Source: a virus (taxonomy: Duplodnaviria > Caudoviricetes). Taken from it: a stretch of 53,902 nt of DNA. The notes under the pieces are model-generated. The model ran no database searches. It was not told the origin of the DNA and was given only the letters and a program-made list of their open reading frames with translations. Every line of letters starts with the position of its first letter. The stretch's first letter is position 1. Location of the stretch: positions 1 to 53,902 of IMG/VR virus record IMGVR_UViG_3300032296_000199; one strand, given 5' to 3'. Shown here piece by piece: positions 1,635 through 50,587 of this stretch. Both the position numbers and the translations under genes were made by a program.

Positions 1635-1978
1635 GCTTTATCGTTACTACTGATTTTGATTTAAACAAGGTAGCCGCACCTAACCTGCCGTTACCTCCGA
1701 ACGAGTACGACCGTATATATTTTGACCAGATGCTCAACATCTTGCGTTTGTACTTCAACAGGATTGATGCGTTAACTACGCAGTTGACGGCTTCTGGCGC
1801 AGTACCTCCTTTGACTAACTACACTGTAGCTACACTACCTAGCGCAGTTACTTCAGGCAAGGGCGCAAGAGCTTTTGTAACAGATGCATTAGGCCCAACA
1901 TTTGGGGCAACCGTTGTGACTGGCGGGGCAGTAGCTGTGCCTGTGTATTCTGACGGAACAAATTGGAAAGTCGGATAA
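1631..1978 (+). CDS. Small virion-associated protein
   Basis: ATGA overlap with the upstream stop and TAATG overlap with the downstream start; lies in the late operon; C-terminal PVYSDGTNWKVG motif. Confidence 0.7.
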   Translation: MSFIVTTDFDLNKVAAPNLPLPPNEYDRIYFDQMLNILRLYFNRIDALTTQLTASGAVPPLTNYTVATLPSAVTSGKGARAFVTDALGPTFGATVVTGGAVAVPVYSDGTNWKVG

Positions 1979-4900
1979 TGGCAATTTCAGATCAAGACAT
2001 ATTTAACTGGTTTGTGCAGAATGAAGGCGCAGACGACGCTACTATTGCTGCCACAATGGATCAGTTTAAAGTGTCACCCGCTGACGTTGCGCGGGCCACA
2101 GGGACTGATTTAACAAATATTGAATCTAGGTATCAAGCAGCCGCCCCCGCACCAACAACTGATTATTTTGCGCAACAGTTTGGGCCAGATACTTCGGGGA
2201 TTGCTTCTCTCCCTGCTGCAACATCTGCTCCTTTTGTTACTACAGCTACTGTCACAGCGGCTCCGGTAGTCACGTCTGCCCCTGTAGTCACATCGGCTTT
2301 TGATTACGAAAGTATTTATGATGTTTTTGGCGGAAAAGGTGCTACTAATGACCTAATCACGCAATTTAGGGCTATGGGGCTGTCCGAAGATGCGATTGCT
2401 TCTGTCTTTGCTCCATATCAAAAAAACCCAACAACTACATTAGCTCCTGTAACTACGGCTGCTCCAGTCACAACTTTAGCTCCTGTAACAACGTTAGCGC
2501 CAATTGCAACGTCTAGTGTAATAACTACGGCTGCTCCAGTTACAACTTTAACTCCTGTAACCACCACCGCCACTACAGTAAATACTGGCTCAAATTACGA
2601 CCAAATGGTTCGTGATGCGTATGCGACTATTGGGCGCTCTGGCATTGGTGGGGCAACAAATCAAATTGACCAAGAAGGCTATAACAATTTTTTAAATGCA
2701 TTGCAGTCTGGCGCAATTAAACCAGCAGACTTCGCATCTACGTTTCAAAGTTCTGTTAAAGACTACATTGCCAAAAATCCCAATGACCGTTACTCACAGT
2801 ATGTTTTAGGTTATTTAGGTGTTAACACTGTCACAACTACTCCAGCACCTACAACCACGGCTGTTGGCATAGCCACACTTACAACTACTCCAGCACCCAC
2901 AACTACAGCGGCTCCTGTAACAACGTTAGCGCCAATTAATCTAAATAATGGTACATATTTAACTGCTACAGGCACAATCGTTGATACGTCAGGTAATGTG
3001 CTTGCGGATACTGGACATGCCGCCACTGCTACATTGACCCAACAAATTCTTGGGCAAAACTTGACGGATAGATGGCAAGGTCAGGGATGGGGGACGCCAC
3101 AAGCTAATGCTTCTGACATGGCAAGGATTTTGGCCAGTATTGGCATTACAGACATTAAACAGTTTGGTGAGGTTCCTCTTTTAGCGCCCGTTGAAGAAAT
3201 TGGTAAAACGTATAACGGAAACCAAGTTGTCAAAATTGACCTTGGCGATGGCGAAATTAGAAATGCGGTATATCAAAGCACTGGTCAATTTGACAGTGAT
3301 GGCAACGCAATCGGTCAATACGTGCCAATACCTAAAGACGCAAAAATTGAAACGCTTTACGGGGTATCTAATGGTGAAAGCTACAATGCCGTTGATCCAT
3401 CAAAAGTAAAAATAATAGATGGCAAACCTGTAGTTGACACAGGGCAAAAAACTTTTGGCAATAAAGTAACAGGCCAAGCCGTTCCTAATACATACAGTGA
3501 ACGTCAAACAGGAAATGCTTTTGGCGGCACGTTTGCTGGCGATGGTAATACTGGTTATCGTGTGCAATTTGCTCCTGATGGAACGCCAATCTTTTATACA
3601 ACGTACGCATCGTCTAACGATCTTGCAAATCTTTTATCAGACCTTGGCCCAATCGGTCAAATTGGTTTGGCTGTTGCCACGGGTGGTTTGTCTATACCTC
3701 AACAAATTGCGGCTCAGTTTGCAATAAGCGTATTGAGCGGCGCTGATATAGAAAACGCTATACAAGGAGCAGCAGCATCGTTTATTGGCTCTCAAATACC
3801 CGGTTTAGATGCAATGAAGGACGCTACTGCGTACCTAAATGGAATTGACCCAACTGGAGTTCTTGCCAGATCATTTACAGGCGCGGCAGTGGGGGCGACC
3901 ACTGGAATTATTACTGGGCAAGATTTATTGACATCAGCCGCAGCGGGCGCTGCAAGTGGTGGTTACTCTGGCGCTGCTGATGCAATCATGGGTAATTTTG
4001 ATTTGACTGGCTTGACCGCTTCTCAAAAATCTGCTTTAAAAAATACAGTTACAGGTGTAATTTCTGGCAAGCCACTTGACCAGACTTTGATGAATTCTAT
4101 TATTGGGCTTGTAAATTCAGAAATTAAAAATATTACAACAAGCCCTACTACAACTCTTTCACCATCTGTAACAGTTGCTGCTGACGACGACATTAATAAT
4201 CCTGTAGTTGGCCTTGATGCAGAAGGTAATTCCGTACGTTTAAATGATATCAATACATTGTTTGCGGGCAATACTGACTACGCCGCACAAGCATCAAATA
4301 TTCTTAATAGTTACGATGTTGCTGGCTTGGCGGCTGTGGCTGCTCCTGCGGCTGGCGCAACTGCGGCAACTAATTCTCCACTGCTCCGGCTTGTGCAAGC
4401 TGCGGCTAATGATCCAAACTATTCTACAAAACTTACCGCATTAGAAAGAGTGCTAACCGCTGCTGGTAGCTCTATCGCTAAAGTGTTGGGCACTGCTGTT
4501 TCGTTAGGTACTTATTCGCCCAATCTAAATGCAGATGAGGACGCAACATTAAAGCGTTTGCGTGAATCTGGGCTAGTCACAATAGATGATTTAAAGACTT
4601 CTCCTGCTACAACTCTTGCGCCCGTTACAACCCTTGCTCCAACTAGTACGCTTGCGCCTGTAACAACACAATATGTTGCGCAACCCGAAGATTACACAGA
4701 TACAACTGAAGAAGTCCAGAATTGGCAAAGTACGCTGGATGAAGTCTATTACACTGACGAAGTTGGGAATCCTGTTACTTTAAGAGACTATTACAGAATT
4801 ATAGGGTTTGAGCCTCCCGGACTACCACCCGGCGTTTTACCAACAAAGCCTACAACAACACAGGCTCCAGCGACTACCGCGCCTCCAGAAACTACTGCGC

Positions 4901-6525
4901 CCCCAGTTACGACAGCGGCTCCAGCTACTACGGCGGCTCCAGCTACTACGGCAGCTCCTGTAACAACAGCTAAACCTTTTACTATTGATGATCCAACTAC
5001 TTGGCCTGATCCAATAGATGATCCTGCGTTTGACCCATTAAAGCCGTCTACTTATCCCGCAACTACTGCGGCTCCAGCTACAACACAGGCTCCTGCTACA
5101 ACTTTAGCGCCGTCTGTAACAACCAAGCCTTTTACTATTGATGATCCAACCACTTGGCCTGATCCAATAGATGATCCTAATTTTGACCCGTTAAAGCCTG
5201 ATACGTATCCGGCTACTACGCTTGCGCCTAAGACAACGCTTGCACCTGCAACAACGCAGTCTCCAGCCACTACTCTTGCGCCTAAAACAACGCTTAGACC
5301 TGTTACTACTCTTGCCCCTGCAACAACTTTGGCTCCTGAGACCACGTTAGCGCCCAAGACGACGCTTGCTCCCGAGACGACGCTTGCTCCTGAAACAACG
5401 CTTGAGCCAGCTACTACTCTTGCACCTGCAACAACTCAGGCTCCCGGCACAACGCTTAAACCTGTAACAACCCTTGAGCCTGTAACAACGCTCGAGCCAG
5501 CTACTACACTTGCTCCCAAGACAACGCTTTCTCCTGAGACAACCCTTGAGCCAGCTACAACATTGGCTCCTAAGACGACCCTTGAGCCAGCTACAACATT
5601 GGCTCCTAAGACGACCCTTAAACCTGAGACTACGTTGGCTCCCAAGACTACGCTTGCCCCTGAGACAACGCTTAAACCTGAGACTACGCTTGCTCCTAAA
5701 ACAACTTTGGCTCCTGAGACTACTCTTAAGCCTGAGACTACACTGGCTCCCAAGACGACGCTTGCTCCTGAGACTACTCTCAAGCCTGAAACTACGTTAG
5801 CACCCAAGACAACGCTTGCTCCTGAGACTACTCTTAAGCCTGAGACAACGTTAGCTCCCAAGACAACTTTGGCTCCTGAGACTACGCTTAAGCCTGAGAC
5901 TACATTGGCTCCCAAAACCACGTTGGCTCCTGAGACTACTCTTGCGCCACCTACAACAACAGTTAAACCTACAACAACCGTACCGCCTACAACAGTTAAA
6001 CCTACAACAACCGTACCGCCTACAACCGTACCGCCTACAACTGCACCACCCACAACCGTACCGCCTACAACTGCGCCACCCACAACGATACCGCCTACAA
6101 CAATACCGCCTACAACAACGGTTGGCCCGACGACAACAATACCGCCTACAACTACCCCCGTGCCTACTACGACTAAAGTAGTTGTAACAACCACTGCTAC
6201 GCCTGCAACAACCAAGGCAAGTGGACAAAACTTAGGCTTAAACTTCCCGCAGGTGCAACAGGCACTTGCCGCTGCTGGCATCCCACAACTTGCCAATGTG
6301 TTCTATTACGGCAAGGACTTTACTTCTAAAAAGCAAAAAATTACCAAAGAAGGTGACTTGGTTGAAGAAGAGTACAAACCACTGAGTGTCGTTAAACCCG
6401 GCGCAGAGATAGAACAGCTTGCCGAAGAAGCAAAAAGCAAGCAAAATACAGCCCTAGATGTTGCCGATAAGCTCATGGGCGAAAATACGTCTTTTGAAGA
6501 CTTAATTAAAATTTTGAGGGGTTAA
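1978..6525 (+). CDS. Large putative internal virion/ejection protein with mucin-like Thr/Pro/Ala repeats (~1515 aa)
   Basis: ATG at 1978 overlaps the preceding TAA. Gly/Ala-rich hydrophobic central segments and extensive TTLAP/TTVPP repeats; sits at the head of the ejection-protein cluster. Confidence 0.75.
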   Translation: MAISDQDIFNWFVQNEGADDATIAATMDQFKVSPADVARATGTDLTNIESRYQAAAPAPTTDYFAQQFGPDTSGIASLPAATSAPFVTTATVTAAPVVTSAPVVTSAFDYESIYDVFGGKGATNDLITQFRAMGLSEDAIASVFAPYQKNPTTTLAPVTTAAPVTTLAPVTTLAPIATSSVITTAAPVTTLTPVTTTATTVNTGSNYDQMVRDAYATIGRSGIGGATNQIDQEGYNNFLNALQSGAIKPADFASTFQSSVKDYIAKNPNDRYSQYVLGYLGVNTVTTTPAPTTTAVGIATLTTTPAPTTTAAPVTTLAPINLNNGTYLTATGTIVDTSGNVLADTGHAATATLTQQILGQNLTDRWQGQGWGTPQANASDMARILASIGITDIKQFGEVPLLAPVEEIGKTYNGNQVVKIDLGDGEIRNAVYQSTGQFDSDGNAIGQYVPIPKDAKIETLYGVSNGESYNAVDPSKVKIIDGKPVVDTGQKTFGNKVTGQAVPNTYSERQTGNAFGGTFAGDGNTGYRVQFAPDGTPIFYTTYASSNDLANLLSDLGPIGQIGLAVATGGLSIPQQIAAQFAISVLSGADIENAIQGAAASFIGSQIPGLDAMKDATAYLNGIDPTGVLARSFTGAAVGATTGIITGQDLLTSAAAGAASGGYSGAADAIMGNFDLTGLTASQKSALKNTVTGVISGKPLDQTLMNSIIGLVNSEIKNITTSPTTTLSPSVTVAADDDINNPVVGLDAEGNSVRLNDINTLFAGNTDYAAQASNILNSYDVAGLAAVAAPAAGATAATNSPLLRLVQAAANDPNYSTKLTALERVLTAAGSSIAKVLGTAVSLGTYSPNLNADEDATLKRLRESGLVTIDDLKTSPATTLAPVTTLAPTSTLAPVTTQYVAQPEDYTDTTEEVQNWQSTLDEVYYTDEVGNPVTLRDYYRIIGFEPPGLPPGVLPTKPTTTQAPATTAPPETTAPPVTTAAPATTAAPATTAAPVTTAKPFTIDDPTTWPDPIDDPAFDPLKPSTYPATTAAPATTQAPATTLAPSVTTKPFTIDDPTTWPDPIDDPNFDPLKPDTYPATTLAPKTTLAPATTQSPATTLAPKTTLRPVTTLAPATTLAPETTLAPKTTLAPETTLAPETTLEPATTLAPATTQAPGTTLKPVTTLEPVTTLEPATTLAPKTTLSPETTLEPATTLAPKTTLEPATTLAPKTTLKPETTLAPKTTLAPETTLKPETTLAPKTTLAPETTLKPETTLAPKTTLAPETTLKPETTLAPKTTLAPETTLKPETTLAPKTTLAPETTLKPETTLAPKTTLAPETTLAPPTTTVKPTTTVPPTTVKPTTTVPPTTVPPTTAPPTTVPPTTAPPTTIPPTTIPPTTTVGPTTTIPPTTTPVPTTTKVVVTTTATPATTKASGQNLGLNFPQVQQALAAAGIPQLANVFYYGKDFTSKKQKITKEGDLVEEEYKPLSVVKPGAEIEQLAEEAKSKQNTALDVADKLMGENTSFEDLIKILRG
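4972..5219 (+). repeat. Internal duplication (153-bp period) encoding KPFTIDDPTTWPDPIDDPxFDPLKPxTYPATT
   Basis: Two near-identical copies starting at 4972 and 5125. Confidence 0.95.
5215..5945 (+). repeat. Coding tandem repeat: 18-bp unit encoding TTL(A/K/E)P(K/E/A/V), with a higher-order 54-bp unit (APKTTL-APETTL-KPETTL)
   Basis: Directly visible in DNA and translation; copies differ mainly at third codon positions. Confidence 0.95.
5946..6215 (+). repeat. Coding repeat of PPTT(V/A/I) units
   Basis: Repeated CCGCCTACAAC; translation PPTTVKPTTTVPPTTVPPTTAPP. Confidence 0.9.
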
Positions 6526-10280: not shown

Positions 10281-13200
10281 ATGCCTACATATCAAGTTGA
10301 TGTTGGAAACAAAACCTATGAAGTAGATGCGCCGGATTCCAACACTGCTTGGCAGTGGGCTAACTTTACCCATTCAAAAGCACCTAAAGAACCTGTTGCA
10401 TCTAAAGAACGTACTTTTGGTGAAGCCTTTACTGACATAGGTGCGGCAGGTCTTGGCGGTATTGGCTCTCTTGTTCAGTTGCCCGGTCAACTGTATGGCC
10501 TAGCCACTGGAGACTTTTCTAAGACAGGTGCTTTGGGCGCTGGGCAAGAACTTGAAGAATATGCTAAAGGACTCAAGTCCAAAGGCTTGCTTGCCCGTGA
10601 AGCCGCACGCGATGTGGCTATGCAGAACGCTGAAAAACAAGGTCAGTTTCAAGCGTTTAAGACTGCTATTGGTCAGACTGTTTCTGATCCTGCTTTGTTG
10701 TCTACATTCCTTGCAGAACAATTACCACAGATAATCCCTGCCGCTTTAACAGGCGGTGCTACTGCCGCAGCTACATCCGGCAACGTATTGGCAAAAGCAG
10801 CTACTAGACAAATCTCTAAAGAAGCCGCAGAGAAAGTGGCACAGCGCGAGGCTATTCGTGCAGGTACTACTGCCGCAGTTGGTACAGGCGCAGTGCAACA
10901 AGGCGCAGACATTGGCGCTGGCACTTACGATGAAGTGGTCAAAGAACTTGTAAGCAAGGGTGCAACTCCTGAACAAGCCGGACAAGCCGCTATCAATCTG
11001 GCAAGGGCTTCTGGCGTATCGGGCGCGGCTCTGTCTCTTATTGCCAATAGGTATTTACCCGGGGGTCAAGCCTTGGAGCGAGTGTTGGCCGGTGGGACAA
11101 CAGGCAAAGGCATCATCACGGGTGCGGCTACGGGTGCGGTCAAAGAACTGCCAAGCGAGATACTGGAAGAAACAGGCGGCAGATTTACACAGAACCTTGC
11201 CTTGCGCGAAGTCAAACCAGAGCAAAGCCTTACACAAGGACTGGGCGCAACTGCTGGTCAAGCGGCACTTGGTGCAGTGGGTCTGGGCGGTGTAGCTGGA
11301 GCTATTGGTGGACGTGGTGGTGCTACGCCTGAAGTACCTGTTGATCAACAACAAGAACCTGTTGTAACACCTGCGCCCACTGCGGCTCCTGAAGAAGAAA
11401 AAGAACGCACGCTCGAGGAGTTACTTGCCACTGGCAAACGTCCACCTCCTGAATACAAAGCGCCAGAGGGTGTGACTATTACTGCGCCCAAAGGCTCACT
11501 AGATGAGCTTGAGCAGATTATTGCTGCACAGCAGCAAAAGTACGATAACCGTCAAAAAGAAATTGAAGGTAAACAGGCGTTAAATCAAAACCCCAAAAAT
11601 CAAATCAAAGCCAATGAACAACTTGCTGCTGAACTTACATCAATGCGGGAAGCGCTTGCCAAAAGGATTGAGGCTGGAGAAACGTATGTTGCAAAATCTG
11701 ACCAAGGAACAGGTGGAGATGGCTCTGGAGTATCTGTACCACCAAGTAATAATGTACCCCCCGCCGAAGGAGTTGGAGCACCTGAACGAGGCGGAGTGGA
11801 TAGTACTGGACAAGATGCTGGAGGGCTTGATACGGGAGCAGCAGGACAGCAGACTGCAATAACACCACCAGCAGAAACACAAGTTGTAAAACCCACAGGA
11901 GCAGACGTTGGCACTCAAACCACTCAAACCAAGCAAGCAGAAGCGCAAGGACAAAAACCACCCGCAGCCCCCGTTGTAAAGACTGCTGCACAGCAAGACG
12001 AAGACTTGCTTAATAATCTCTTTGGAGATGATGGTCTTCCGTCAACTGGTTCTGCGCGTCGTACCCAAGCACAGATTGCAAAAGATAATCAGATTGAGGC
12101 GCTTGGTAAAAAATACGGATTAGCGCAACGCGATGGTGAGTCACAACAAGAATTTGGTAAACGCTTGCGCAGTGCTGTTGCGTTTGAAAAAGAACGTGAA
12201 GGCAAGCCGCTTGGCGCTATGAGTACGCAGGCAATTGCAGGGCAGGATATTAAAGAAGCGCAAGGGTACTTTCCACCTCAAGAGCAACGTGACTTGTACG
12301 AAGAAACGCGCCAAGAATACAACCAACGTGTTGATGAACAGATCAAAGCAGGTGAGGCAACTGAAGATGACAAACTCCCTGCCTATAAAGAACTGAGTGA
12401 TGATGATCGTCGCGTTTATTTCCGTGACAACATTCAGCAGAACAACCAAGTAGAACACGACAAAGCAGTCAAAGTATTGGCTGAGCATTTGTCTGATAAA
12501 CGTTCCGAAAGCCGTGCCGCGCCAGAGTATCAACGAACTGAAGCAACGGATCAAATTCGTGCGCAGAAAAGTTACGAGCGTGAACGTGGTGGTTTTGGGT
12601 CTAAGACAGGTATGGCGTATACATTCCCCGGATGGAATAGTTTGTCAGACGAAAGCCGTAGACTCTTTGCAAGTCTTAACCAAACCGATACTGTCCTTGA
12701 ACAAGACGTGGCGTTTCGTGCCGTAAAGAAACAAGTTCAAAAAGAAAAGTTAGAAGAACAGTCTCGTGAAAGATTGCAAGAAGCAGAAAGCCGCGCAAAA
12801 CAAGAGATGCTTGCGGCTGCGGAAAGAGCTCGCGCTAGTCAGCCATCAGGCAAAGGAGCCGTACTTCCTAAAAATATTGTAGAAGCCTTATTTAATGGTG
12901 ACATCAAAACTGTACTTAACTATTTATCTTCTGATGAGTCTAAAGGCATAAAGAGTCCAAGCAAAGAACGCAATATATTTACCCGTCAAATTTTTCGGTT
13001 GTTGGCTAGTTCTCTTAATAGCATTGAAAACTTCCGTGTAAATGTTGTGTTTGATGAAAACATGACTTTGGCTAATATTGCCAAGTACGATGCCAACACC
13101 AATACGTTGTATGTAGGCCCCAAAGGACTTGATGAAGCCACAATTCTTCACGAGCTTACTCACGCTGCAACAGTCAAACTTGTCCATCAATTCTTTACGG

Positions 13201-16200
13201 ACAAAACTAAACTGCCTCCAAACGTTGTAAAGGCAATTGAAAACATTCAAACAATTGCATCTGCTGCACAAAAATTATTGGGTAAAAAATACCCCAATGC
13301 GTTTGATAATCTGTATGAGTTTATAGCCTACGCTATGACCGACTTGGATTTCCAAAATGATTTAGCAAGTAAACAAATACCAAGACTTGCTACTGTTACA
13401 GAAAAAAGCGCAGAGCAAGCGCAAGCGGTGCAAGATGAACGCGCATTTAACATAAAGGGATATGACTTTATGTTTGACAACCTGTGGAAATATTTCACAG
13501 GAAACTTGGCATTCATGTATCAATTGTTTACGCCAAAGCCTAAATCTCAAAGGCTTTTAGTTCCTGTTGATTACTACGATGAAGCAAGCAAACGCACTGT
13601 TCGCACTGGTACGTACACCAAAGCGCCTAAAAATGCGCCAGTCAGATTTACTCGACAACGTAGCGTAGGACTTGAAGGTTTATCAGAAGAAGAACGCAAA
13701 GATGCCGTACTAACCCCACTCGTTAGTGAGCTGGTTATGGAGCGCGGTGTCTCCAATTTGAAGAGTCTTATTTTGACGCAGCCCGGCTATAAAGGCAATT
13801 TGCTGCTTGAGGCGGCAGATGCGATTAGCCAGATATTTGAAGCGCCTACAGGTGGTATTGAAAAACTTGCTGGTAAAGAAGCTATTGGTTCAGAGTTATA
13901 TGCTGGGGCAAAAGGTGCGGCTGGTAAACCTATTACGCAAAAAGCGCCAAAGAAAACTACGCAACGTTCGCCTGACGAAATCATTGCAGAGCAAAAACTG
14001 CCTGATGAAAAAGGCACAAGCAAAGTTCGTGACTTTATGACCAGCACTGCTGGTGTGCGTAGACTTGCCACCATCTTTGCAAATAGCCGTTACCCCATTA
14101 AAGTATGGGAAGATGCATTGCAACGCGCAAAGAAAACAATTGATGCTGGCCCTGATCTAAACAACATCTATACACAGATCACATTGTCTGCGGCGCGTGC
14201 TAAAGATTTGTATCTGACGATGGTCAATACACCAGCTACTGAATTGCAGCAAGCTATTGGTGAATACGCAAAAGCCGCCAAGGTTGATTCTAATTTGGCG
14301 CTAAAGCAGTTGCATACATACTTCATGGCGCTGCATGAGCCAGAGCGTCGCGCAATTAAATTCTTGCGCAATGTGCCTTTGAAAAACTCAGATGTGCAAT
14401 TTAACGGGCAAACAATAAATCCTGCTGACTTCCGTCAAGATGTGCTTAATGCAGTTGAGTCTGGTAAGTTGACCAAGAAAGAAGTCAAACGTTTGCGTCA
14501 AGAGTTAGATGCAGTTGTGGCGCAATATAAAGAAGCTTCAGGTTTTAGCCCCGCTGGTTATAAAACTACTGACATGAATGGCTCAGACTACAACGTGATT
14601 GGTAATCTGTATCCTGATGAAGCAAAAGCTATTCGTGACAAGTTTGATGGCAACAAAAAGGCTGAGGCAGTAATTACTGCAATGAAAGCCATGAACGATG
14701 TGACAGCCGAGCTAAACAAGAAGGCTAACTATTGGTCTAAGCCTGTGCAAAGCGTCGTAGATTTCTACGGCTGGGATCATTACATCCCATTCAAGGGTAA
14801 AGAAATATCAGGTAGTCAAGACGGAATGCTTGACTTTGATATTCTTAAAACTGACAAGCGCTTTGCAGAAAAACTGCAAGACTTCCAAAGTGAGTTTGAA
14901 GGCCGTGAATCATGGTCAGACAATTCATTAACGCAGATCATGAGCGATGCTACACGCGCTGCAATGCGTGCTGGGCGCAAAGACTTGACGCTGGCAATTA
15001 AAAATGCAATTGACCAGAAGTTGTTGATGGGTTCAGTCAATGAAGTTAAAGGTTTAAATGGCAAGCCGATTGAGTTTGCTGACCGCAACAAAATTGATTT
15101 GGGTGAGTTGGCTGGTAAAACAACCATCTTCCATTACAACGAGAACGGCAGCATTGATGTGTTGCAGGTGTATAGCGAAGCTGAGCGCAATGCCATCCGT
15201 CGCGCATACCAGCAAACCAATCCTTTGATTGACATGCTCAACACTGTTACTAGCACTGTGGGTCAATTCCATACACGCTATAACGTGGCGTTTGCGCCAA
15301 TGAACTACTTCCGTGATATGTTGACCAATGCATTTACGATTGGTACAGACATGAATGCATCAACTGCTGCGCAATACATTGGCGCTGTTACATCGCAAGT
15401 TGTGAACGGTGGTATGTATAAGACATGGAAGATTGCTAGTCTGTATAACTCTGGCAAGATGGCTGAACTTAATGCGTTTGTTGCTAAAGATAAATCAGGC
15501 TTCTCCCAAGATGTAATGGAGTACATTAAAGAAGGCGGCATGGTGTCCTATCTGCAAGGCTTGTCTGCTAAAGGCACGTTCCAGAATTTGCAAAAAGATC
15601 TAAATTCAAGTAAGCCTAAAAAGGCATTGGCTGCTATGAATGGTTTCTTTGATGTGTATGCCGACATGTTTGAATTGTCTAGCCGTACTGCTGCTTACCG
15701 CATTACCCGCAACAAACTACTACGTGAAGACAAGCTGTCTGATGAAGCCGCTAGAACTCGTGCGGCTGCGTATGTAAAAAACCTTGCAAACTTTGAGCAA
15801 GTTGGTGAGTGGGGACGGGGCGCTGGCGCAATGTTTATGTTCTTTAGACCCGCCGCTACAGGTGCAGTACGCGCTATTGAAACATTAGGGCCAATGATTC
15901 GCAGTACCGACGAAGCAGTCATGGACTTGCCGCCTGAAGTACGCAAGGATGCAAAGGCAGTTGCTGAATTCCGTAAGAATCATGAGAAGCAACGCAAAGC
16001 CGCGCAAGCTATGACATTAAGTCTAGCTGGTTTTGGTGTTGGCATGTACTTGCTGTCTATGGCACTGTCAGACGATGATGATATGGGTCGCAACCGCACT
16101 AAGACTGACGACATTAACCGTTGGGCGCGTTATGCGCGATTCCATATTCCCGGCTTAGAAACTCCAATTCAAATTCCTTGGGGCTTTGGTTTGGGCGCAT

Positions 16201-17027
16201 TTGCGGCTAGTGGCGCACAGATTGCTGCTATGGCTACTGGACAAGCATCTATTAAAGAAGGCTTTAGCAATACATTGTCTGTGATGATGGATTCATTCTT
16301 GCCGTTGCCAGTCTCGCGTATCAACATGTTTGATAACTTCCCCGCATGGTTGATGGACTCTGCGCTGCCATCTGCGGCTCGTCCTCTGTTTGAATGGCAG
16401 ATGAACATCGATGCTTTGGGTCGTGAGATTTACAACAACCGCCAGACGCGCGTGGGTGATGCGTACACAGGTGGCGATAACATTCCTGAGTTGTATAAGT
16501 CAGCCGCCCGTACTCTTGCAGATGTTACAAATGGTGCTATAGACTGGAGTCCTAATACGTTGTACTTCTTTGCCAATAACTATGCTGACGGGCCGATGCG
16601 ACTTGCGCAGACAGGCATGAATCTATCATTGCTTGCGGCTGGAGAAAAAGCGTTTAATCCAAAGACAGATACAATTTTGTTTGATAGTTTCTTTGGGTCT
16701 GCTTCAAACTACGACGCTAAACAATTTTCCGCTATTGAAAAGCAAATCAAAGATATGGAACGTAAACTCAAAATGTTTGAGTCCAATCCAGAACAATATC
16801 AAAAGTATGTTGAAGCTAACCCAATGGACGAGTATCTTGTCAAGATGTACAACGAAGGTGTCAACGGTCGCTTGAAAGAGTATCGGGAAGAAGCCAACGC
16901 TATCCGTAAGATGCCTGATCTTTCTCCCAAAGACCGTAACGATGCGCTAAAGAACATTGTGCAGATGCAGAACTTTGAGAAGCGTCACATGATCGATGCG
17001 TTTGAGATGTTTGACATCAAGCCCTAA
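10281..17027 (+). CDS. Giant internal virion protein, polyvalent-protein type, with a zincin-like HExxH domain and an LPD38-like C-terminus
   Basis: 2248 aa and the last gene of the late block; ATILHELTHAAT at ~13140-13170; C-terminal IQIPWGFG...DALGREIY segment resembles LPD38. Confidence 0.65.
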   Translation: MPTYQVDVGNKTYEVDAPDSNTAWQWANFTHSKAPKEPVASKERTFGEAFTDIGAAGLGGIGSLVQLPGQLYGLATGDFSKTGALGAGQELEEYAKGLKSKGLLAREAARDVAMQNAEKQGQFQAFKTAIGQTVSDPALLSTFLAEQLPQIIPAALTGGATAAATSGNVLAKAATRQISKEAAEKVAQREAIRAGTTAAVGTGAVQQGADIGAGTYDEVVKELVSKGATPEQAGQAAINLARASGVSGAALSLIANRYLPGGQALERVLAGGTTGKGIITGAATGAVKELPSEILEETGGRFTQNLALREVKPEQSLTQGLGATAGQAALGAVGLGGVAGAIGGRGGATPEVPVDQQQEPVVTPAPTAAPEEEKERTLEELLATGKRPPPEYKAPEGVTITAPKGSLDELEQIIAAQQQKYDNRQKEIEGKQALNQNPKNQIKANEQLAAELTSMREALAKRIEAGETYVAKSDQGTGGDGSGVSVPPSNNVPPAEGVGAPERGGVDSTGQDAGGLDTGAAGQQTAITPPAETQVVKPTGADVGTQTTQTKQAEAQGQKPPAAPVVKTAAQQDEDLLNNLFGDDGLPSTGSARRTQAQIAKDNQIEALGKKYGLAQRDGESQQEFGKRLRSAVAFEKEREGKPLGAMSTQAIAGQDIKEAQGYFPPQEQRDLYEETRQEYNQRVDEQIKAGEATEDDKLPAYKELSDDDRRVYFRDNIQQNNQVEHDKAVKVLAEHLSDKRSESRAAPEYQRTEATDQIRAQKSYERERGGFGSKTGMAYTFPGWNSLSDESRRLFASLNQTDTVLEQDVAFRAVKKQVQKEKLEEQSRERLQEAESRAKQEMLAAAERARASQPSGKGAVLPKNIVEALFNGDIKTVLNYLSSDESKGIKSPSKERNIFTRQIFRLLASSLNSIENFRVNVVFDENMTLANIAKYDANTNTLYVGPKGLDEATILHELTHAATVKLVHQFFTDKTKLPPNVVKAIENIQTIASAAQKLLGKKYPNAFDNLYEFIAYAMTDLDFQNDLASKQIPRLATVTEKSAEQAQAVQDERAFNIKGYDFMFDNLWKYFTGNLAFMYQLFTPKPKSQRLLVPVDYYDEASKRTVRTGTYTKAPKNAPVRFTRQRSVGLEGLSEEERKDAVLTPLVSELVMERGVSNLKSLILTQPGYKGNLLLEAADAISQIFEAPTGGIEKLAGKEAIGSELYAGAKGAAGKPITQKAPKKTTQRSPDEIIAEQKLPDEKGTSKVRDFMTSTAGVRRLATIFANSRYPIKVWEDALQRAKKTIDAGPDLNNIYTQITLSAARAKDLYLTMVNTPATELQQAIGEYAKAAKVDSNLALKQLHTYFMALHEPERRAIKFLRNVPLKNSDVQFNGQTINPADFRQDVLNAVESGKLTKKEVKRLRQELDAVVAQYKEASGFSPAGYKTTDMNGSDYNVIGNLYPDEAKAIRDKFDGNKKAEAVITAMKAMNDVTAELNKKANYWSKPVQSVVDFYGWDHYIPFKGKEISGSQDGMLDFDILKTDKRFAEKLQDFQSEFEGRESWSDNSLTQIMSDATRAAMRAGRKDLTLAIKNAIDQKLLMGSVNEVKGLNGKPIEFADRNKIDLGELAGKTTIFHYNENGSIDVLQVYSEAERNAIRRAYQQTNPLIDMLNTVTSTVGQFHTRYNVAFAPMNYFRDMLTNAFTIGTDMNASTAAQYIGAVTSQVVNGGMYKTWKIASLYNSGKMAELNAFVAKDKSGFSQDVMEYIKEGGMVSYLQGLSAKGTFQNLQKDLNSSKPKKALAAMNGFFDVYADMFELSSRTAAYRITRNKLLREDKLSDEAARTRAAAYVKNLANFEQVGEWGRGAGAMFMFFRPAATGAVRAIETLGPMIRSTDEAVMDLPPEVRKDAKAVAEFRKNHEKQRKAAQAMTLSLAGFGVGMYLLSMALSDDDDMGRNRTKTDDINRWARYARFHIPGLETPIQIPWGFGLGAFAASGAQIAAMATGQASIKEGFSNTLSVMMDSFLPLPVSRINMFDNFPAWLMDSALPSAARPLFEWQMNIDALGREIYNNRQTRVGDAYTGGDNIPELYKSAARTLADVTNGAIDWSPNTLYFFANNYADGPMRLAQTGMNLSLLAAGEKAFNPKTDTILFDSFFGSASNYDAKQFSAIEKQIKDMERKLKMFESNPEQYQKYVEANPMDEYLVKMYNEGVNGRLKEYREEANAIRKMPDLSPKDRNDALKNIVQMQNFEKRHMIDAFEMFDIKP

Positions 17028-21317: not shown

Positions 21318-21328
21318 TTTGAATTTCC

Positions 21329-27977: not shown

Positions 27978-28154
27978 GTGGTTTTCTGAAATATTTTTTA
28001 TCCTTTCATAATATTGTTTAGGGAATGGGTCTTTCTTATCTAATAACTTTCTTAACCATTCAGCACCTCCAAGATGATTAAGAACAATCCATTGTCTATC
28101 TGACATTCGTACTTGCCTGCCGATTAGTGGCTCGGGCGGTTTAGGTCTTGGCAT
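27960..28154 (-). CDS. Small hypothetical protein (possible ribbon-helix-helix-like)
   Basis: MPRPKPPE...VRMSD..W...LGGAEWLR; overlaps its neighbours in the operon. Confidence 0.6.
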   Translation of the reverse strand: MPRPKPPEPLIGRQVRMSDRQWIVLNHLGGAEWLRKLLDKKDPFPKQYYERIKNISENHLTNKN

Positions 28155-28332
28155 GTTTCAGGTTCCTTGATGTTGTTCGGTTAGTCCAACACATAGCACA
28201 CACCCACTTGGATGGCGACATGTGTATGCCACCTTCAGGGGGCTTTGCTACTTCACACTTGCCACATAACTTGTAGCCGTGTAATGGTTGCTTACTACCT
28301 ATATCTAGTTGTTGTTTAACAAATCCGTTCAT
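28141..28332 (-). CDS. Small Zn-finger-like protein
   Basis: CGKC...CAMC; ATGA overlap. Confidence 0.6.
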   Translation of the reverse strand: MNGFVKQQLDIGSKQPLHGYKLCGKCEVAKPPEGGIHMSPSKWVCAMCWTNRTTSRNLKHAKT

Positions 28333-29273
28333 GGATTTCCTTTTCTTCTTGCGTGGGGCGCGATTGTTTTACTGCGGTAGTCAATGCCTGAGAAGTTTGC
28401 ATACTCAGCCAATGTCCTCGCCTTGCCTAGACCATAGATGCCAAGGTCAGCGTTGTGCTGTAGGAGTGCGGTCATCCTCGCCTTAGACTTGTTGTCTAGT
28501 TCCCACCATCGTTGGTTTCTTTCCTTGTCGGAGTTGGGAGACCAATGAACCTCTCGGTGTGTTGTAGCTACATCTCCTGTGCTATACAAGTGATAGATAG
28601 GCACATCCGTGGTGTGATAAATATCCCATCCATGTGTCCACGCACGCACCGAGAGAGTCTGCTCCTCGCCCTCAAAGTACAAGTGCGGGTCGTAAGGCAC
28701 TTCGTATACAAACCGCCCATGAGTGAAGATAAAACCTGCCGCCATGTGAAAGCCTTTCAGGGGTACATCACTTGTGCGAGATGAAGCGGTAAAAAGAATG
28801 ATCGTGTTCTCTTCTTTAAACTCAAAGTCATCGTTGACATAGTTATACAGAATCCCATCGGTAGTTCTCTCAGGTACAGGAACATCGTCAACCATCTTGA
28901 ATGGGTGTGGGTAATTGGATATAACAAACTTAGGCGACATCTGTGAGCAACGTGCTGCCGCTATGAGTAGTGTGTCATCCCACCCCTGATCAAATACCAT
29001 GTGAGAGTCGATCTGCATAAACCACGCCTCACCTGAGTAGAGTGACATGGCAAGGGAACGCGCCCAACAAGCACCTCTCGTATCGCGTACATCTATCCCA
29101 ACATACCTTACTTGGGATTTGATATCGTCAAACTTGAGTCGCCTTTCCGCAAAGTTTTGTTCTACTATTCCAAACCTCAACTCACTTGGGCGGCTAGCCT
29201 TTGCAAGCATGTCTCGTATGGTTTGTTCAAGTAGTCTGTCACAGTAGGATGCAACGCTAACAAAAATGGTCAT
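28329..29273 (-). CDS. GT60-family (Pfam GlcNAc; Gnt1/OGNT-like) N-acetylglucosaminyltransferase
   Basis: TIFVSVASYCD, RGACWAR, FMQIDSHMVF..GWD, AAGFIF, EVPYDPHLYFEGEE..LSVRAWTHGWD and IYHLY are the conserved blocks of Dictyostelium Skp1 GlcNAc-transferase-like enzymes. ATG 29273 overlaps the upstream TGA. Confidence 0.85.
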   Translation of the reverse strand: MTIFVSVASYCDRLLEQTIRDMLAKASRPSELRFGIVEQNFAERRLKFDDIKSQVRYVGIDVRDTRGACWARSLAMSLYSGEAWFMQIDSHMVFDQGWDDTLLIAAARCSQMSPKFVISNYPHPFKMVDDVPVPERTTDGILYNYVNDDFEFKEENTIILFTASSRTSDVPLKGFHMAAGFIFTHGRFVYEVPYDPHLYFEGEEQTLSVRAWTHGWDIYHTTDVPIYHLYSTGDVATTHREVHWSPNSDKERNQRWWELDNKSKARMTALLQHNADLGIYGLGKARTLAEYANFSGIDYRSKTIAPHARRKGNP

Positions 29274-30594: not shown

Positions 30595-30679
30595 ACAGGT
30601 GCATCCTCATAGTTTTCGGGGTTGAAAGGTAATTTGTATAGGGGTTCATGGTCGGGCGGTTGGTTGGGGAAAGGCCAAA

Positions 30680-30856
30680 CTACTCCAGTACATCCAACAC
30701 CACTTTCTTGATCTTCATGTAGGCTTCCGCTTTCGTGTACGGCATGGCTAGTATGTTGTCTATTTCGCATAGTGCCTCGTAGTATTCTGTTGCATGCATT
30801 GCATGTTGAAGTTTATTTTCATCTTCGGGGTATTCAAATTCAAGTACGGCTTTCAT
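30680..30856 (-). CDS. Small hypothetical protein (58 aa, MKAVLEFEYPEDE...)
   Basis: Hand-translated; MKAxLEFxxPED N-terminus is common in phage small genes; ATGA overlap. Confidence 0.65.
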   Translation of the reverse strand: MKAVLEFEYPEDENKLQHAMHATEYYEALCEIDNILAMPYTKAEAYMKIKKVVLDVLE

Positions 30857-31020
30857 TGACGTTTCTCACTTGGGGGTGTCCACCCAAACTTACGCCATGT
30901 ATCTTGTACATTGGTTAGATTGGCGGGAACGTAAATAAATCTTGGGTCTAGCAAGCTTGGGCGCACAGGCTTTTGTAGTTTCTGCGCGGGTATAGAGACC
31001 AGTTTCTTGTTGGTGTTCAT
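30853..31020 (-). CDS. Small hypothetical protein (55 aa, ...TNVQDTWRKFGWTPPSE)
   Basis: Hand-translated; ATGA overlaps at both ends. Confidence 0.65.
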   Translation of the reverse strand: MNTNKKLVSIPAQKLQKPVRPSLLDPRFIYVPANLTNVQDTWRKFGWTPPSEKRQ

Positions 31021-34766: not shown

Positions 34767-34855
34767 TATGGTCTCCAGTAATAAACGTCTAACAGTAAAA
34801 CGATGAATGCCAACAGCAGTAGCACTCGCTCAAACTTCTCGCCTCTTGTAAGCAT
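34766..34855 (-). CDS. Small membrane peptide (29 aa, MLTRGEKFERVLLLLAFIVLLLDVYYWRP)
   Basis: Hand-translated; SD GAGG; TAATG overlap with the VWA gene; single hydrophobic helix. Confidence 0.6.
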   Translation of the reverse strand: MLTRGEKFERVLLLLAFIVLLLDVYYWRP

Positions 34856-34863
34856 GTGCTACC

Positions 34864-45267: not shown

Positions 45268-45455
45268 ACGAGATAGAACTGCTTAAGAAGCAGAATGACG
45301 AATTTCGCCAACAGGCGATAGACAAACTTGCTACTGGCGGAGTCAAAGACTACGCAGAGTATCGAGAATTGGTAGGGGTTATTAGAGGTCTTGACCATGC
45401 CAATTACAACCTTCAAGACCTCAAACAACGTATAGAAAGACTAAACGATGAGTGA
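45264..45455 (+). CDS. Small conserved protein after portal
   Basis: G...DY.EYR..VG.IRGL motif; ATGA overlap. Confidence 0.7.
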   Translation: MNEIELLKKQNDEFRQQAIDKLATGGVKDYAEYRELVGVIRGLDHANYNLQDLKQRIERLNDE

Positions 45456-49557: not shown

Positions 49558-49854
49558 ATGTCAATGCAAACTGATGTTAAATCAACGCACCGCAGTACTG
49601 CTGGGTCGTTTTACGCAGGTCGTACACGGCTAAAAGGTTTTATTGTTACACCCGCTATAAGTACCGCCTGCACATTTGAAATTCGTGACGGTAGCGCCTC
49701 GGGCGCAGTTTTGTTCACAATGGACATTACAAGTCAAACCGTAGCTAACTCTACGTATATTCTTGTTCCCGGCGAAGGTATTTTGGCTTCTACGGGACTG
49801 TATTTGACGTTGAGCGTTGGCTCGTTAACCAGCCTCTCGGTGTTCTATGGCTGA
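49558..49854 (+). CDS. Small virion-associated protein
   Basis: SD AAGGAG; MQTDVK...PGEGIL...FYG motif. Confidence 0.7.
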   Translation: MSMQTDVKSTHRSTAGSFYAGRTRLKGFIVTPAISTACTFEIRDGSASGAVLFTMDITSQTVANSTYILVPGEGILASTGLYLTLSVGSLTSLSVFYG

Positions 49855-50587
49855 AACAAAACAGGCAACACTGACAGGGCGCAAGCTGTTCATAGGCATC
49901 CCAGCTTATGACGGCAAGCTGAACATCAAGACCGCATTTGCACTAGCGCAGTTAATGCCCAAGGCAATGAGTCTTGGTGTGTCCGTCACGTTGTCTGATT
50001 TGTCCAACTGCTCAATCATTACTATGGCTCGCAACGCCCTAGTACACGAATTCTTAAAGACAGATTGCACAGAGCTTCTGTTTATTGATGCTGATGTAAT
50101 CGTCTCTCCAGACGACATCCTGCGTTTAATGGCTCAAAGTGGCGGCATGGATATAACCGCTGGCGCGTACCCACGTAGAGCCAAAGATGCTAAATTCTTT
50201 GCTGACGTGTACTACGACGAAAAGGGCGACCTAGAGTTTAAAGGCTCTTTGATGCGTTTAAAACGTGCGCCTACAGGGTTTATGCTGATTCAGCGTCATG
50301 TCATTGAGCAAATGATTTTTAATCATCCAGAATGGACTTATGAGAAGTCCCCAACAGAAAAGATGTCAGCGGTGTTTGACTTTGCTATCCGTGATGGCAA
50401 GTATGTTGGCGAAGATTATTTGTTCTGTGATCGTGCAACTGAGATGGGATTTACAGTCTACCTAGACGTAGACATTAGTCTTCCCCATGTAGGTCAAGAA
50501 ATATTTGAGCGCAACTTCCGTGAAGAAGTTGTAATGCCTTTACTTGAAAACATTTATCACCATAAACTGAAAGTCGTAAATGGCTAA
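49847..50587 (+). CDS. GT-A fold glycosyltransferase
   Basis: LFIGIPAY, ARNALV..FL, LLFIDAD (DxD), TGFMLI.R, GEDY.FC and L.HVG. Confidence 0.85.
   Translation: MAETKQATLTGRKLFIGIPAYDGKLNIKTAFALAQLMPKAMSLGVSVTLSDLSNCSIITMARNALVHEFLKTDCTELLFIDADVIVSPDDILRLMAQSGGMDITAGAYPRRAKDAKFFADVYYDEKGDLEFKGSLMRLKRAPTGFMLIQRHVIEQMIFNHPEWTYEKSPTEKMSAVFDFAIRDGKYVGEDYLFCDRATEMGFTVYLDVDISLPHVGQEIFERNFREEVVMPLLENIYHHKLKVVNG

What the first reader, a model, noticed from the sequence alone, without database searches (positions are those of the whole stretch)
28329..29273. Candidate phage-encoded mucin-type O-glycosylation system: GT60 GlcNAc-transferase plus a mucin-like virion protein
Seen: a complete GT60-like gene (IFVS.ASY.D, QIDSH, VPYDP...GEE, WTHGWD) in the same genome as a late protein (1978-6525) with roughly 450 residues of Thr-Thr-x-x-Pro repeats and a second glycosyltransferase (49847-50587). 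Established: GT60 includes Dictyostelium Skp1-hydroxyproline GlcNAc-transferase Gnt1 and the protist polypeptide alpha-GlcNAc-transferases (Dictyostelium Gnt2, Trypanosoma cruzi OGNT) that start O-glycosylation on Thr of Thr/Pro-rich mucins; the family is related to animal GT27 ppGalNAc-transferases. Inference: the phage primes its own mucin-like domain with GlcNAc and extends it with the second GT, making a glycoprotein brush for shielding, adhesion, or stiffening an ejection conduit. Caveats: the gene lies in the early accessory cluster, not next to the repeat gene, and no prolyl hydroxylase is visible in the window, so a host protein could be the real substrate.
Basis: partly seen in the sequence, partly recalled or inferred. 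Interest (0 to 1): 0.88.

Follow-up and report, generated by a model that had tools for sequence, protein, structure and literature searches.

The report
Phage glycosyltransferase paired with mucin-like protein
A freshwater bacteriophage carries an enzyme of the family that starts mucin-type sugar coating in protists, and related phages have such an enzyme almost only when one of their large particle proteins carries a long threonine/proline repeat, so the phage probably sugar-coats its own protein.

Summary
Window 28329-29273(-) encodes a 314-aa GT60 enzyme (Pfam PF11397, E 7.7e-61). Its model is closest to GT27 polypeptide GalNAc-transferases, with an invariant DxH motif. Window 1978-6525(+) encodes a 1515-aa protein with 451 residues of Thr/Pro array.

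This protein is hypervariable across related IMG/VR podophages.
- Of 6 genomes with arrays of 280 residues or more, 5 carry a dedicated glycosyltransferase: GT60, or a GT2 inserted after the portal gene.
- In relatives this enzyme often sits beside prolyl-hydroxylase-like 2OG oxygenases.
- None of 15 near-complete genomes without large arrays carries one.
- One complete genome (G024) has an array and no such enzyme.
- Phylogenetically independent pairs: 4 agree, 0 disagree, 1 shows no difference. That is too few for significance.

An unrelated phage shares only two of 32 queried window proteins: the GT60 and an array-flanked domain.

Bacterial homologues (Burkholderiales) lie near secreted filamentous-haemagglutinin-type proteins with Pro/Thr arrays in 26 of 80 loci.

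No DNA-modification partner genes were found.

All evidence is computational. No glycan has been shown.

The parts
28329..29273 (-). GT60-family glycosyltransferase, 314 aa. It is the catalytic domain only, with no signal peptide, membrane segment or lectin domain visible in the sequence.
   Evidence: PF11397 E 7.7e-61. AlphaFold model pLDDT 91.8. The top 50 Foldseek PDB hits are nearly all GT27 ppGalNAc-transferases, best E 7.6e-11. D89-x-H91 and H228 are invariant in 28 homologues.
1978..6525 (+). Hypervariable 1515-aa 'slot' protein of the particle/ejection-protein module. It has a conserved N-terminus, a middle domain, a Gly/Ala-rich hydrophobic stretch and a conserved C-terminal ~100 aa. 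It is the proposed substrate.
   Evidence: Translation. No Pfam or PHROG family. Orthologues found in 23 IMG/VR loci. It lies between a hub/'stabilization protein'-like gene and the virion-RNA-polymerase-like gene.
4789..5052 (+). Thr/Pro array block 1 (residues 938-1025; 20 T, 21 P).
5185..6273 (+). Thr/Pro array block 2 (residues 1070-1432; 124 T, 70 P). Units are TTLAPK, TTLKPE, TTLEPA, then PPTT/TTVPP.
   Evidence: 65 TT-x-x-P motifs within the arrays.
45268..45447 (.). Empty 180-bp gap between the portal gene and the next late gene. In relatives this site holds the cassette: 2OG oxygenase(s) plus GT60, or GT2.
   Evidence: Gene maps of G008, G010, G012, G030, L428, L429 and L430.
49847..50587 (+). 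Second glycosyltransferase-like gene (phage-specific GT-A family). It was considered and found not linked to the arrays.
   Evidence: phrog_1574. 127 IMG/VR relatives. Its distribution is independent of the arrays. ESM Atlas clusters are all viral and auto-named 'putative Anp1'.
3..1634 (+). Hub/'stabilization protein'-like particle protein directly upstream (5' end cut by the record). It was used as the marker gene for sampling relatives.
   Evidence: phrog_3287 E 1e-50. tblastn hits are annotated stabilization, tail or needle-head protein.
10281..17027 (+). 2248-aa protein at the end of the same module, with a weak virion RNA polymerase match.
   Evidence: phrog_2206 E 2.2e-16.

Best explanation
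The 314-aa enzyme is a soluble, cytoplasmic, metal-dependent polypeptide O-HexNAc transferase of family GT60. It most likely adds alpha-GlcNAc from the host's UDP-GlcNAc pool. Its main substrate is the phage's own Thr/Pro array (TT-x-x-P units, about 450 residues) in the large hypervariable protein encoded at 1978-6525. That protein sits in the ejection/internal-protein module of a podophage.

Glycosylation would turn the array into a stiff, protease-resistant, mucin-like rod or brush. In relatives the same job is done by interchangeable cassettes inserted after the portal gene:
- a 2OG oxygenase plus GT60;
- a prolyl-4-hydroxylase-like gene, an oxygenase and GT60;
- the same two oxygenases plus GT2;
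- GT2 alone.
Some of these probably hydroxylate Pro first.

Shown here: family membership, fold, conserved motifs, gene positions, co-distribution, and the genomic context of bacterial homologues.

Inferred: the substrate, the sugar, the residue modified (Thr in this window, because no hydroxylase is seen), the location of the protein in the particle, and the physical role of the array.
For: 1. Family and fold.
- PF11397 E 7.7e-61.
- Model pLDDT 91.8.
- The top 50 PDB fold hits are nearly all GT27 polypeptide GalNAc-transferases.
- The DxH motif (D89, H91) is invariant in 28 homologues. DxH in place of DxD is the mark of GT27 and GT60 (PMC7185993, passages read).

2. Co-distribution.
- Arrays of 280 residues or more (T+P at least 50% in 60-aa windows) occur in the window (451), G015 (387), G012 (373), G008 (386), G010 (324) and G024 (286).
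- 5 of these 6 carry GT60 or a strong PF00535 GT2.
- 0 of 15 genomes at 95% completeness or more without such arrays carry GT60, strong GT2 or PF13640.
- The base rate of arrays of 200 residues or more is 7 of 73 marker-sampled loci.
- On a tree of the neighbouring gene the array state changes 6 times. There are 5 independent pairs: the glycosyltransferase goes the same way in 4, the other way in 0, and does not differ in 1.

3. Position in relatives.
- In G008, G012, L428, L429 and L430 the GT60 lies in the late operon directly after the portal gene.
- L428 has a backbone 97-100% identical to the window in the core head genes (terminase, portal, major capsid and neighbours) and in the two early genes it holds (g204 92%).

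4. Co-transfer.
- In the otherwise unrelated phage G011, only 2 of 32 queried window proteins have a match: the GT60 (74% identity) and a domain of the array protein that is again flanked by TT-x-x-P arrays.

5. Motif matches enzyme type.
- Early-type GT60 (window, G015, G011) goes with TT-x-x-P.
- Oxygenase plus late-type GT60 (G012, G008) goes with TPTV.
- GT2 (G010, G030) goes with TTPT or TPTP.

6. Bacterial homologues.
- The best 80 genome loci are nearly all titled Burkholderiales-type or unclassified betaproteobacterial/Pseudomonadota genomes, at 42-52% identity.
- 26 of 80 have an ORF of 300 aa or more (nearly all 1200 aa or more) with a Pro/Thr array within 10 kb.
- Two were checked by Pfam: a TPS secretion domain (E 7e-28), and the filamentous haemagglutinin family domain DUF3739 plus PT repeat.

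7. No DNA-modification partners were found.
Against: - No glycan has been observed. Everything is genomic inference.
- In this window the gene lies on the minus strand in the early/replication cluster next to the DNA polymerase, 22 kb from the array gene.
- G024 is 100% complete and has a 286-residue (VTPQ)n plus poly-Pro array. It has no GT60, GT2 or PF13640, and 10 of its unassigned ORFs gave no glycosyltransferase in Pfam.
- Shorter T/P-rich segments (60-190 residues) occur without any such enzyme in complete G047 and in incomplete G035, G037, G038, G046, G049, G053 and G054.
- The sign test on independent pairs gives p = 0.125, which is not significant.
- Absence was scored only on genomes at 95% completeness or more. 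Presence was also accepted from incomplete records. For 9 of the 15 array-free genomes only the 10-20 kb around the marker gene was scanned for arrays.
- It is not known whether G012 or L428 also carry an early-type GT60. Their contigs do not reach that region.
- The array protein's place in the particle rests on synteny alone.
- An ejected protein that must pass through the tail channel is an odd candidate for heavy glycosylation.
Confidence: 0.6

Rival explanations
1. The enzyme modifies a host protein rather than a phage protein. The target could be the Pro/Thr arrays of host filamentous-haemagglutinin-type surface proteins or another host factor. The effect would be host takeover, exclusion of other phages or altered adhesion. 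On this reading the gene is simply a captured host gene.
For: - It lies in the early gene cluster on the minus strand with the replication genes.
- The closest cellular homologues are chromosomal genes of Burkholderiales.
- In 26 of 80 of those loci the homologue lies near such host proteins.
Against: - It does not explain why the phage's own large arrays track the enzyme.
- It does not explain why relatives place the gene in the late operon after the portal gene.
- It does not explain why G011 shares only the enzyme and the array module with the window.
Confidence: 0.15
2. The Thr/Pro arrays are plain unglycosylated spacers. Their association with glycosyltransferases comes from linkage, shared ancestry and small sample size, and the GT60 has some unrelated acceptor.
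For: - G024 keeps a 286-residue array with no such enzyme.
- Array-free relatives fill the same region with other repeats, for example (DAKTKADADAQA)n and TEPEVKEE in G001. This shows that a spacer of any make-up can serve.
- The independent-pair test is not significant.
Against: - Five different gene arrangements with two unrelated glycosyltransferase families all coincide with large arrays.
- Array motif tracks enzyme type.
- The same pairing is seen in bacteria.
Confidence: 0.15
3. The enzyme glycosylates phage DNA (a hydroxylated or hydroxymethylated base) or a cell-envelope glycan, as most known phage glycosyltransferases do.
For: - The gene lies two genes from the DNA polymerase.
- Phage clusters combining a dioxygenase with a glycosyltransferase are known for DNA hypermodification, some of them near structural genes (10.1101/2023.12.21.572611, abstract and section 8 read).
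Against: - No cytosine-5 methyltransferase was found. PF00145 hit 1 of 14 records, and that hit lies inside the 3092-aa frame of G008.
- No TET/JBP dioxygenase in 0 of 5 records. The control genomes also gave nothing, so this is weak.
- No thymidylate-synthase homologue in 0 of 5 records, while controls rang in 10 of 14.
- The oxygenases of relatives match only PF13640, the prolyl-hydroxylase-type family.
- The DNA enzymes in that preprint resemble JGT, TarP, GT8 or T4 beta-GT, not GT27/GT60.
- The enzyme has no membrane segment.
Confidence: 0.07

Closest known systems
GT60 polypeptide alpha-GlcNAc-transferases of protists (Trypanosoma cruzi, Dictyostelium) and the Skp1 hydroxyproline GlcNAc-transferase Gnt1
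   Same: Same Pfam family. DxH motif. Catalytic domain without the ricin-like lectin domain, as described for GT60 (PMC8724618, passage read). The acceptors are Thr/Pro-rich. Relatives pair the enzyme with prolyl-hydroxylase-like genes, as in the Skp1 pathway (the Skp1 pathway is recalled here).
   Different: It is encoded by a bacteriophage and must act in the bacterial cytoplasm. Its nearest cellular relatives are bacterial (Burkholderiales), not protist. The literature I read says GT60 occurs in prokaryotes and protists, but I found no characterised prokaryotic or phage member. Activity is untested.
GT27 polypeptide GalNAc-transferases (animal mucin-type O-glycosylation)
   Same: They are the closest solved folds: the top 50 Foldseek PDB hits are nearly all GT27 enzymes, E down to 7.6e-11, TM 0.54-0.63 on the query. 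They share the DxH motif.
   Different: Only 13-18% sequence identity. The lectin domain is absent. No sequence-level PDB hit. It is not a GT27 member.
Virion glycosylation in mycobacteriophages (Freeman et al. 2023)
   Same: Phage-encoded glycosyltransferases that decorate the phage's own particle proteins, encoded near structural genes.
   Different: There the glycans sit at the C-termini of capsid and tail-tube subunits. I know this only from a citing passage in PMC12619734; the paper itself is not held. Here the candidate target is a long internal Thr/Pro array in an ejection-module protein, the enzyme family is GT60, and hydroxylase partners occur in relatives.
Cytoplasmic glycosylation of two-partner-secretion and autotransporter adhesins (HMW1C on HMW1; TibC and Aah heptosyltransferases). 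This comparison is recalled, not checked here.
   Same: A soluble glycosyltransferase is encoded beside a large secreted adhesin that it modifies before export. The bacterial GT60 loci look like this.
   Different: Different enzyme families and linkages. Pro/Thr arrays as the acceptor have not been described for those systems, to my knowledge.
Giant-virus protein modification (chlorovirus prolyl 4-hydroxylase acting on Pro-rich repeats; virus-encoded capsid glycosylation). This comparison is recalled; the reviews PMC7019647 and PMC9614988 were seen only in search listings.
   Same: A virus-encoded hydroxylase and glycosyltransferases act on the virus's own repeat-bearing or structural proteins.
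   Different: Those are eukaryotic viruses with other enzyme families. Here it is a 60-kb podophage.

Membership tests
CAZy GT60 / Pfam PF11397 | Profile match above the curated threshold over the catalytic domain | tested here: met
   206.9 bits against a cut-off of 21; profile positions 1-42 and 95-350 of 352.
CAZy GT60 / Pfam PF11397 | GT-A fold with DxH in place of DxD (shared with GT27) | tested here: met
   Model pLDDT 91.8. Q87, D89 and H91 are invariant in 28 sequences. The motif is defined in PMC7185993.
CAZy GT60 / Pfam PF11397 | C-terminal metal-binding His | tested here: inconclusive
   H228 is invariant. I did not obtain a residue-level superposition on a GT27 structure.
CAZy GT60 / Pfam PF11397 | No ricin-like lectin domain (this distinguishes GT60 from GT27) | tested here: met
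   The 314-aa protein is fully taken up by the catalytic domain. Feature as stated in PMC8724618.
CAZy GT60 / Pfam PF11397 | Retaining transfer of GlcNAc from UDP-GlcNAc to Thr/Ser or hydroxyproline of a polypeptide | not testable with these tools
   Needs an enzyme assay.
Skp1-type hydroxyproline glycosylation (prolyl hydroxylase followed by GT60) | A prolyl 4-hydroxylase encoded with the transferase | tested here: not met
   There is no PF13640 match in the window, and no oxygenase homologue in any of the 18 early-type GT60 loci L003-L020. The feature is met in relatives G008, G012, L428, L429 and L430. About 15% of the window's genome is missing.
Phage virion-glycosylation systems | Glycosyltransferase encoded within the structural gene module | tested here: not met
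   In the window the GT60 lies in the early cluster. The feature is met for late-type GT60 and GT2 in relatives.
Phage virion-glycosylation systems | Glycan detected on particle proteins | not testable with these tools
   Needs mass spectrometry or glycan staining of particles.
Phage DNA-glycosylation systems | An enzyme that makes the hydroxylated base: a thymidylate-synthase homologue, or a cytosine methyltransferase plus a TET-like dioxygenase | tested here: not met
   PF00303 in 0 of 5 records. PF12851 in 0 of 5 (the controls were also silent). PF00145 absent from the window.

The most novel reading that the evidence does not exclude
Freshwater podophages and their probable Burkholderiales hosts share a modular system in which a protein carries a Pro/Thr array and a cytoplasmic enzyme set modifies it. 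A long array in a large exported or ejected protein is paired with an interchangeable cassette: GT60 alone, a 2OG prolyl-hydroxylase-like oxygenase plus GT60, or GT2. The array motif and the enzyme type change together. If true, this would be the first mucin-type (GlcNAc-Thr) and Skp1-type (GlcNAc-hydroxyproline) protein glycosylation outside eukaryotes. It would be used by phages on an ejection-module protein and by bacteria on two-partner-secretion adhesins. It would also point to a prokaryotic origin for the GT60/GT27 way of initiating O-glycans.
Probability: 0.4. Interest if true: 0.88.

Novelty: new variant of a known kind. Interest (0 to 1): 0.78.

Why it matters
Phage-encoded glycosylation of the phage's own particle proteins is so far documented, as far as I could find, only for mycobacteriophages. 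Mucin-type initiation by GT27 and GT60 enzymes is treated as a eukaryotic trait.

A phage GT60 matched to a 450-residue Thr/Pro array would extend both fields, especially given that relatives add prolyl-hydroxylase-like genes and that bacteria show the same pairing. It also gives a simple, directly testable substrate pair: enzyme plus repeat peptide in E. coli.

It bears on three practical questions:
- how podophage ejection-module proteins are built;
- how repeat spacers evolve;
- the annotation of thousands of 'hypothetical' PF11397 proteins in metagenomes (4177 representatives at E of 0.001 or better).

Tried and rejected
- A near-identity DNA search against GenBank phages found nothing. 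The repeat protein as a tblastn query found only one 54-residue match.
- Sequence searches of the PDB with the GT60, alone and as a 28-sequence profile, gave no relative. Only the fold search did.
- I had recalled a solved Gnt1 structure. None appeared in any search, so I dropped that comparison.
- The fold of the small oxygenase of relatives (4-sequence alignment) reached only pLDDT 60.5. I ran no fold search on it. Its assignment rests on PF13640 matches and on the invariant H-x-D...H...R.
- I looked for fusion proteins joining a GT60 domain to a Thr/Pro array. 0 of 262 homologues held one.
- The second glycosyltransferase as glycan extender was rejected on distribution.
- Jumbo phages with a distant GT60-like gene gave mixed results. 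XacN1 has a 327-residue array protein 14 kb away. The syntenic RAS14 orthologue lacks the array, and only a 55-77-residue Pro/Ser/Thr segment in a giant neighbouring protein is shared.
- My first array measure (T+P of at least 50%) also picked up T/G-rich, A/P-rich and poly-Pro segments. I therefore report large arrays separately and used a stricter measure for the base rate.
The Freeman 2023 paper is not held. Supplementary files were not consulted.
- Complex prediction, sequencing-run look-ups and read laying were not used.
Full report
**What is in the window.** The record is an IMG/VR viral contig of 53,902 bases. It is linear and about 85% complete.

Late genes run on the plus strand from 40.7 kb to the end and continue from base 3 to 17 kb. 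They include large terminase, portal, a major-head-like protein, an SU10-type adaptor, a hub/'stabilization protein'-like gene, and a 2248-aa protein with a weak virion RNA polymerase match.

Replication genes run on the minus strand from 17 to 40 kb. They include a DUF927 primase-like protein, an SNF2 helicase, a PD-(D/E)XK nuclease and DNA polymerase A.

No close cultured relative exists. The megablast search found nothing, and the polymerase is 34% identical to those of Rhizobium and Pseudomonas podophages.

**The GT60 gene.**
- It matches Pfam PF11397 at E 7.7e-61.
- It has 4177 representative homologues at E of 0.001 or better.
- A model built on 28 homologues has pLDDT 91.8.
- Its 50 best PDB fold matches are nearly all GT27 polypeptide GalNAc-transferases, E down to 7.6e-11 and 13-18% identity.
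- Q87, D89, H91 and H228 are invariant. DxH replacing DxD is the stated mark of GT27 and GT60. GT60 is said to occur only in prokaryotes and protists (PMC7185993, passages) and to lack the lectin domain of GT27 (PMC8724618, passage).
- Sequence searches of the PDB found nothing.

Membership in GT60 is therefore as firm as sequence can make it. Activity is untested.

**The repeat protein.** The ORF at 1978-6525(+) encodes 1515 aa. 451 residues lie in two Thr/Pro blocks, far above shuffles of the same protein (mean 5.8, maximum 153 of 200). The DNA units are imperfect (64-83% matches), so the composition is maintained at the protein level.

The protein has no Pfam or PHROG family. It follows the hub-like gene and a 115-aa gene, and it precedes three unassigned genes and the polymerase-like giant. 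In the annotated lake phage DSL-LC04 the same positions are labelled 'tail tape measure protein' and 'DNA transfer protein'. I read it as an ejection/internal particle protein by synteny only.

**The co-occurrence test.** I sampled relatives in five ways:
- by the GT60 itself (24 loci);
- by the middle domain of the repeat protein (23 loci);
- by the second glycosyltransferase (127 relatives, 80 kept);
- by the hub-like marker gene, twice (at least 600 matches each, 80 kept each).

I then searched 60 records for PF11397. 42 records were searched for each of PF00535 and PF13640. Fourteen records were read in full.

The gene between the 115-aa gene and the next conserved gene is hypervariable. 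In G001 the same region holds (DAKTKADADAQA)n and TEPEVKEE repeats instead of Thr/Pro.

Arrays of 280 residues or more occur in six genomes:

| Genome | Array (residues) | Dedicated enzyme |
|---|---|---|
| Window | 451 | GT60 |
| G015 | 387 | GT60 |
| G012 | 373 | GT60 |
| G008 | 386 | GT60 |
| G010 | 324 | GT2 (PF00535, E 2e-33) |
| G024 | 286 | none found |

G030 has a (TP)n array of at least 106 residues, cut by the contig end. It carries a GT2 and two PF13640 oxygenases.

Fifteen genomes at 95% completeness or more without large arrays have none of the three families. They are G001-G006, G021, G023, G025, G027-G029, G047, G051 and G055. For 9 of them I scanned only the 10-20 kb around the marker gene for arrays.

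A 2x2 table of 5/1 against 0/15 gives Fisher p of about 3e-4 by my own arithmetic. The genomes are related, however. On a tree of the marker gene there are 5 independent pairs: 4 concordant, 0 opposed, 1 without a difference (G024 against G002). That gives p = 0.125.

The base rate of arrays of 200 residues or more, by a stricter measure, is 7 of 73 loci.

Results against the link:
- G024 has a large array and no enzyme.
- Segments of 60-190 residues occur without an enzyme in complete G047 and in seven incomplete records. Several of those segments are T/G-rich, A/P-rich or poly-Pro rather than Thr/Pro arrays.

**Cassettes and positions.** In G008, G012, L428, L429 and L430 a GT60 of a second type (43-46% identical to the window's) lies between the portal gene and the next late gene. 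It is always preceded by a small 2OG oxygenase, and in L430 also by a prolyl-4-hydroxylase-like gene.

G030 has both oxygenases with a GT2, and G010 has the GT2 alone. The oxygenases match only PF13640 and keep H-x-D...H...R.

L428 shares 97-100% identical terminase, portal and capsid genes with the window. The window's own portal gap is an empty 180 bp. Near-identical backbones therefore carry either the early stand-alone GT60 or the late cassette. Whether L428 or G012 also have the early copy is unknown.

Array motifs follow enzyme type: TT-x-x-P with early-type GT60, TPTV with oxygenase plus late-type GT60, and TTPT or TPTP with GT2.

G011 is an unrelated phage. Only 2 of 32 queried window proteins match it: the GT60 (74%) and a small domain of the repeat protein, duplicated there and again followed by TT-x-x-P arrays.

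**Bacterial relatives.** The named homologues and the 80 best genome loci are nearly all titled Burkholderiales-type or unclassified betaproteobacterial/Pseudomonadota genomes (Roseateles, Paucibacter, Rubrivivax, Ramlibacter, Caenimonas and MAGs), at 42-52% identity. Their G+C is 54-73%, and they hold no other window gene.

In 26 of 80 loci an ORF of at least 300 aa (nearly all 1200 aa or more) with a Pro/Thr/Ala array lies within 10 kb, at two recurring positions. Two were checked by Pfam. One has a TPS secretion domain (E 7e-28) with a C-terminal (APTP)n. The other has the filamentous-haemagglutinin family domain DUF3739 and a PT repeat. The other neighbours checked are housekeeping genes. 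One locus (L400) has a prolyl-hydroxylase-like gene directly after the GT60.

I have no random-locus control for the 26 of 80, and related genera share synteny. I therefore count this as independent but moderate support.

**Rival explanations.**
- DNA glycosylation. The usual upstream enzymes are missing. The DNA transferases described by Pyle et al. resemble other folds.
- A host-protein target. This fits the early position and the host origin of the gene, but not the co-distribution.
- Chance or linkage. This remains possible, because the number of independent contrasts is small.

**The second glycosyltransferase.** It is a phage-specific GT-A family found in at least 127 contigs. It is present in array-free G002, G003, G007 and G029 and absent from array-bearing G008, G024 and G030. 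Nothing links it to the arrays.

**Novelty.** Full-text searches found no report of a phage GT60 or of such cassettes. The terms were 'GT60' with 'phage', 'GT60' with polypeptide, GlcNAc and bacteria, prolyl 4-hydroxylase with bacteriophage, hydroxyproline and glycosyltransferase, and phage virion glycosylation.

Particle glycosylation by phage enzymes is known for mycobacteriophages; I saw this only in a citing passage.

Noticed in passing
L036:9200-15043 (G001) compared with window 1978-6525: The orthologous protein of a GT60-free complete genome replaces the Thr/Pro arrays with about 430 residues of (DAKTKADADAQA)-type repeats, TEPEVKEE repeats and (AQPPA)n. The N-terminal and middle domains and the C-terminal ~100 aa are kept. 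The region behaves as an exchangeable spacer.
   Followed up: partly
L421:4260-9959(-), L416:5725-9825(-), L358:16877-20911(-) and 23 further bacterial loci: Burkholderiales GT60 homologues lie next to, or about 6 kb from, two-partner-secretion/filamentous-haemagglutinin-type giants that carry (APTP)n or (xPTV)n arrays. This looks like a possible bacterial adhesin glycosylation system.
   Followed up: partly
L400:1132-2043 and 2155-2967: In one Burkholderiales MAG contig a prolyl-4-hydroxylase-like gene directly follows the GT60 homologue. It is 29% identical over 295 aa to the phage G030 gene.
   Followed up: no
L433:8192-10603 (69.8-kb IMG/VR contig): In another phage, two adjacent 2OG oxygenases follow a 265-aa Cys-rich protein with (PT)n and (PA)n arrays inside a tail-fibre region. 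One oxygenase is P4H-like; the other resembles the small oxygenase of the portal cassettes. No glycosyltransferase is in view.
   Followed up: no
L424:5929-7893 and 19992-21365 (Xanthomonas phage XacN1); L425 (Stenotrophomonas phage RAS14): The jumbo phage XacN1 has a distant GT60-like gene in a cluster with a carbamoyltransferase and a GT9. A 654-aa protein with 327 residues of Thr/Pro/Ser array lies 14 kb away among head genes. The syntenic RAS14 orthologue is 196 aa and has no array.
   Followed up: partly
P0003-P0010 (homologues): Proteins of 1088-2461 aa hold three or four tandem GT60 domains. Their origin is unknown, and none holds a Thr/Pro array.
   Followed up: no
window 6527-7399 and orthologues: The gene after the repeat protein ends in a strongly conserved ~70-aa motif (GGYSDGGRLLKGPGDGVSDSIPA...LADGEFV.PARIVSE.GNGST.AG). 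In G002, G003, G007 and G023 this motif is fused to the C-terminus of the large variable protein. No family is assigned.
   Followed up: no
window 33564-35946(-): There is a pair of early genes. One is a DUF2201 metallopeptidase-like plus VWA-like protein (E 8e-24 and 5e-19). The other is an AAA/STAND-like ATPase. The pair is conserved in G001, G003, G015 and G030.
   Followed up: no
L423:5324-5944 (phage DSL-LC04) and G036 30632-30889: 2OG-Fe(II) oxygenase genes also occur in the tail-fibre regions of relatives that have no Thr/Pro array in the sampled locus. Not every such oxygenase is therefore tied to the arrays.
   Followed up: no
window 28141-28332(-): A 63-aa Cys-rich (zinc-ribbon-like) ORF overlaps the stop of the GT60 gene by 4 bases. 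Its function is unknown.
   Followed up: no
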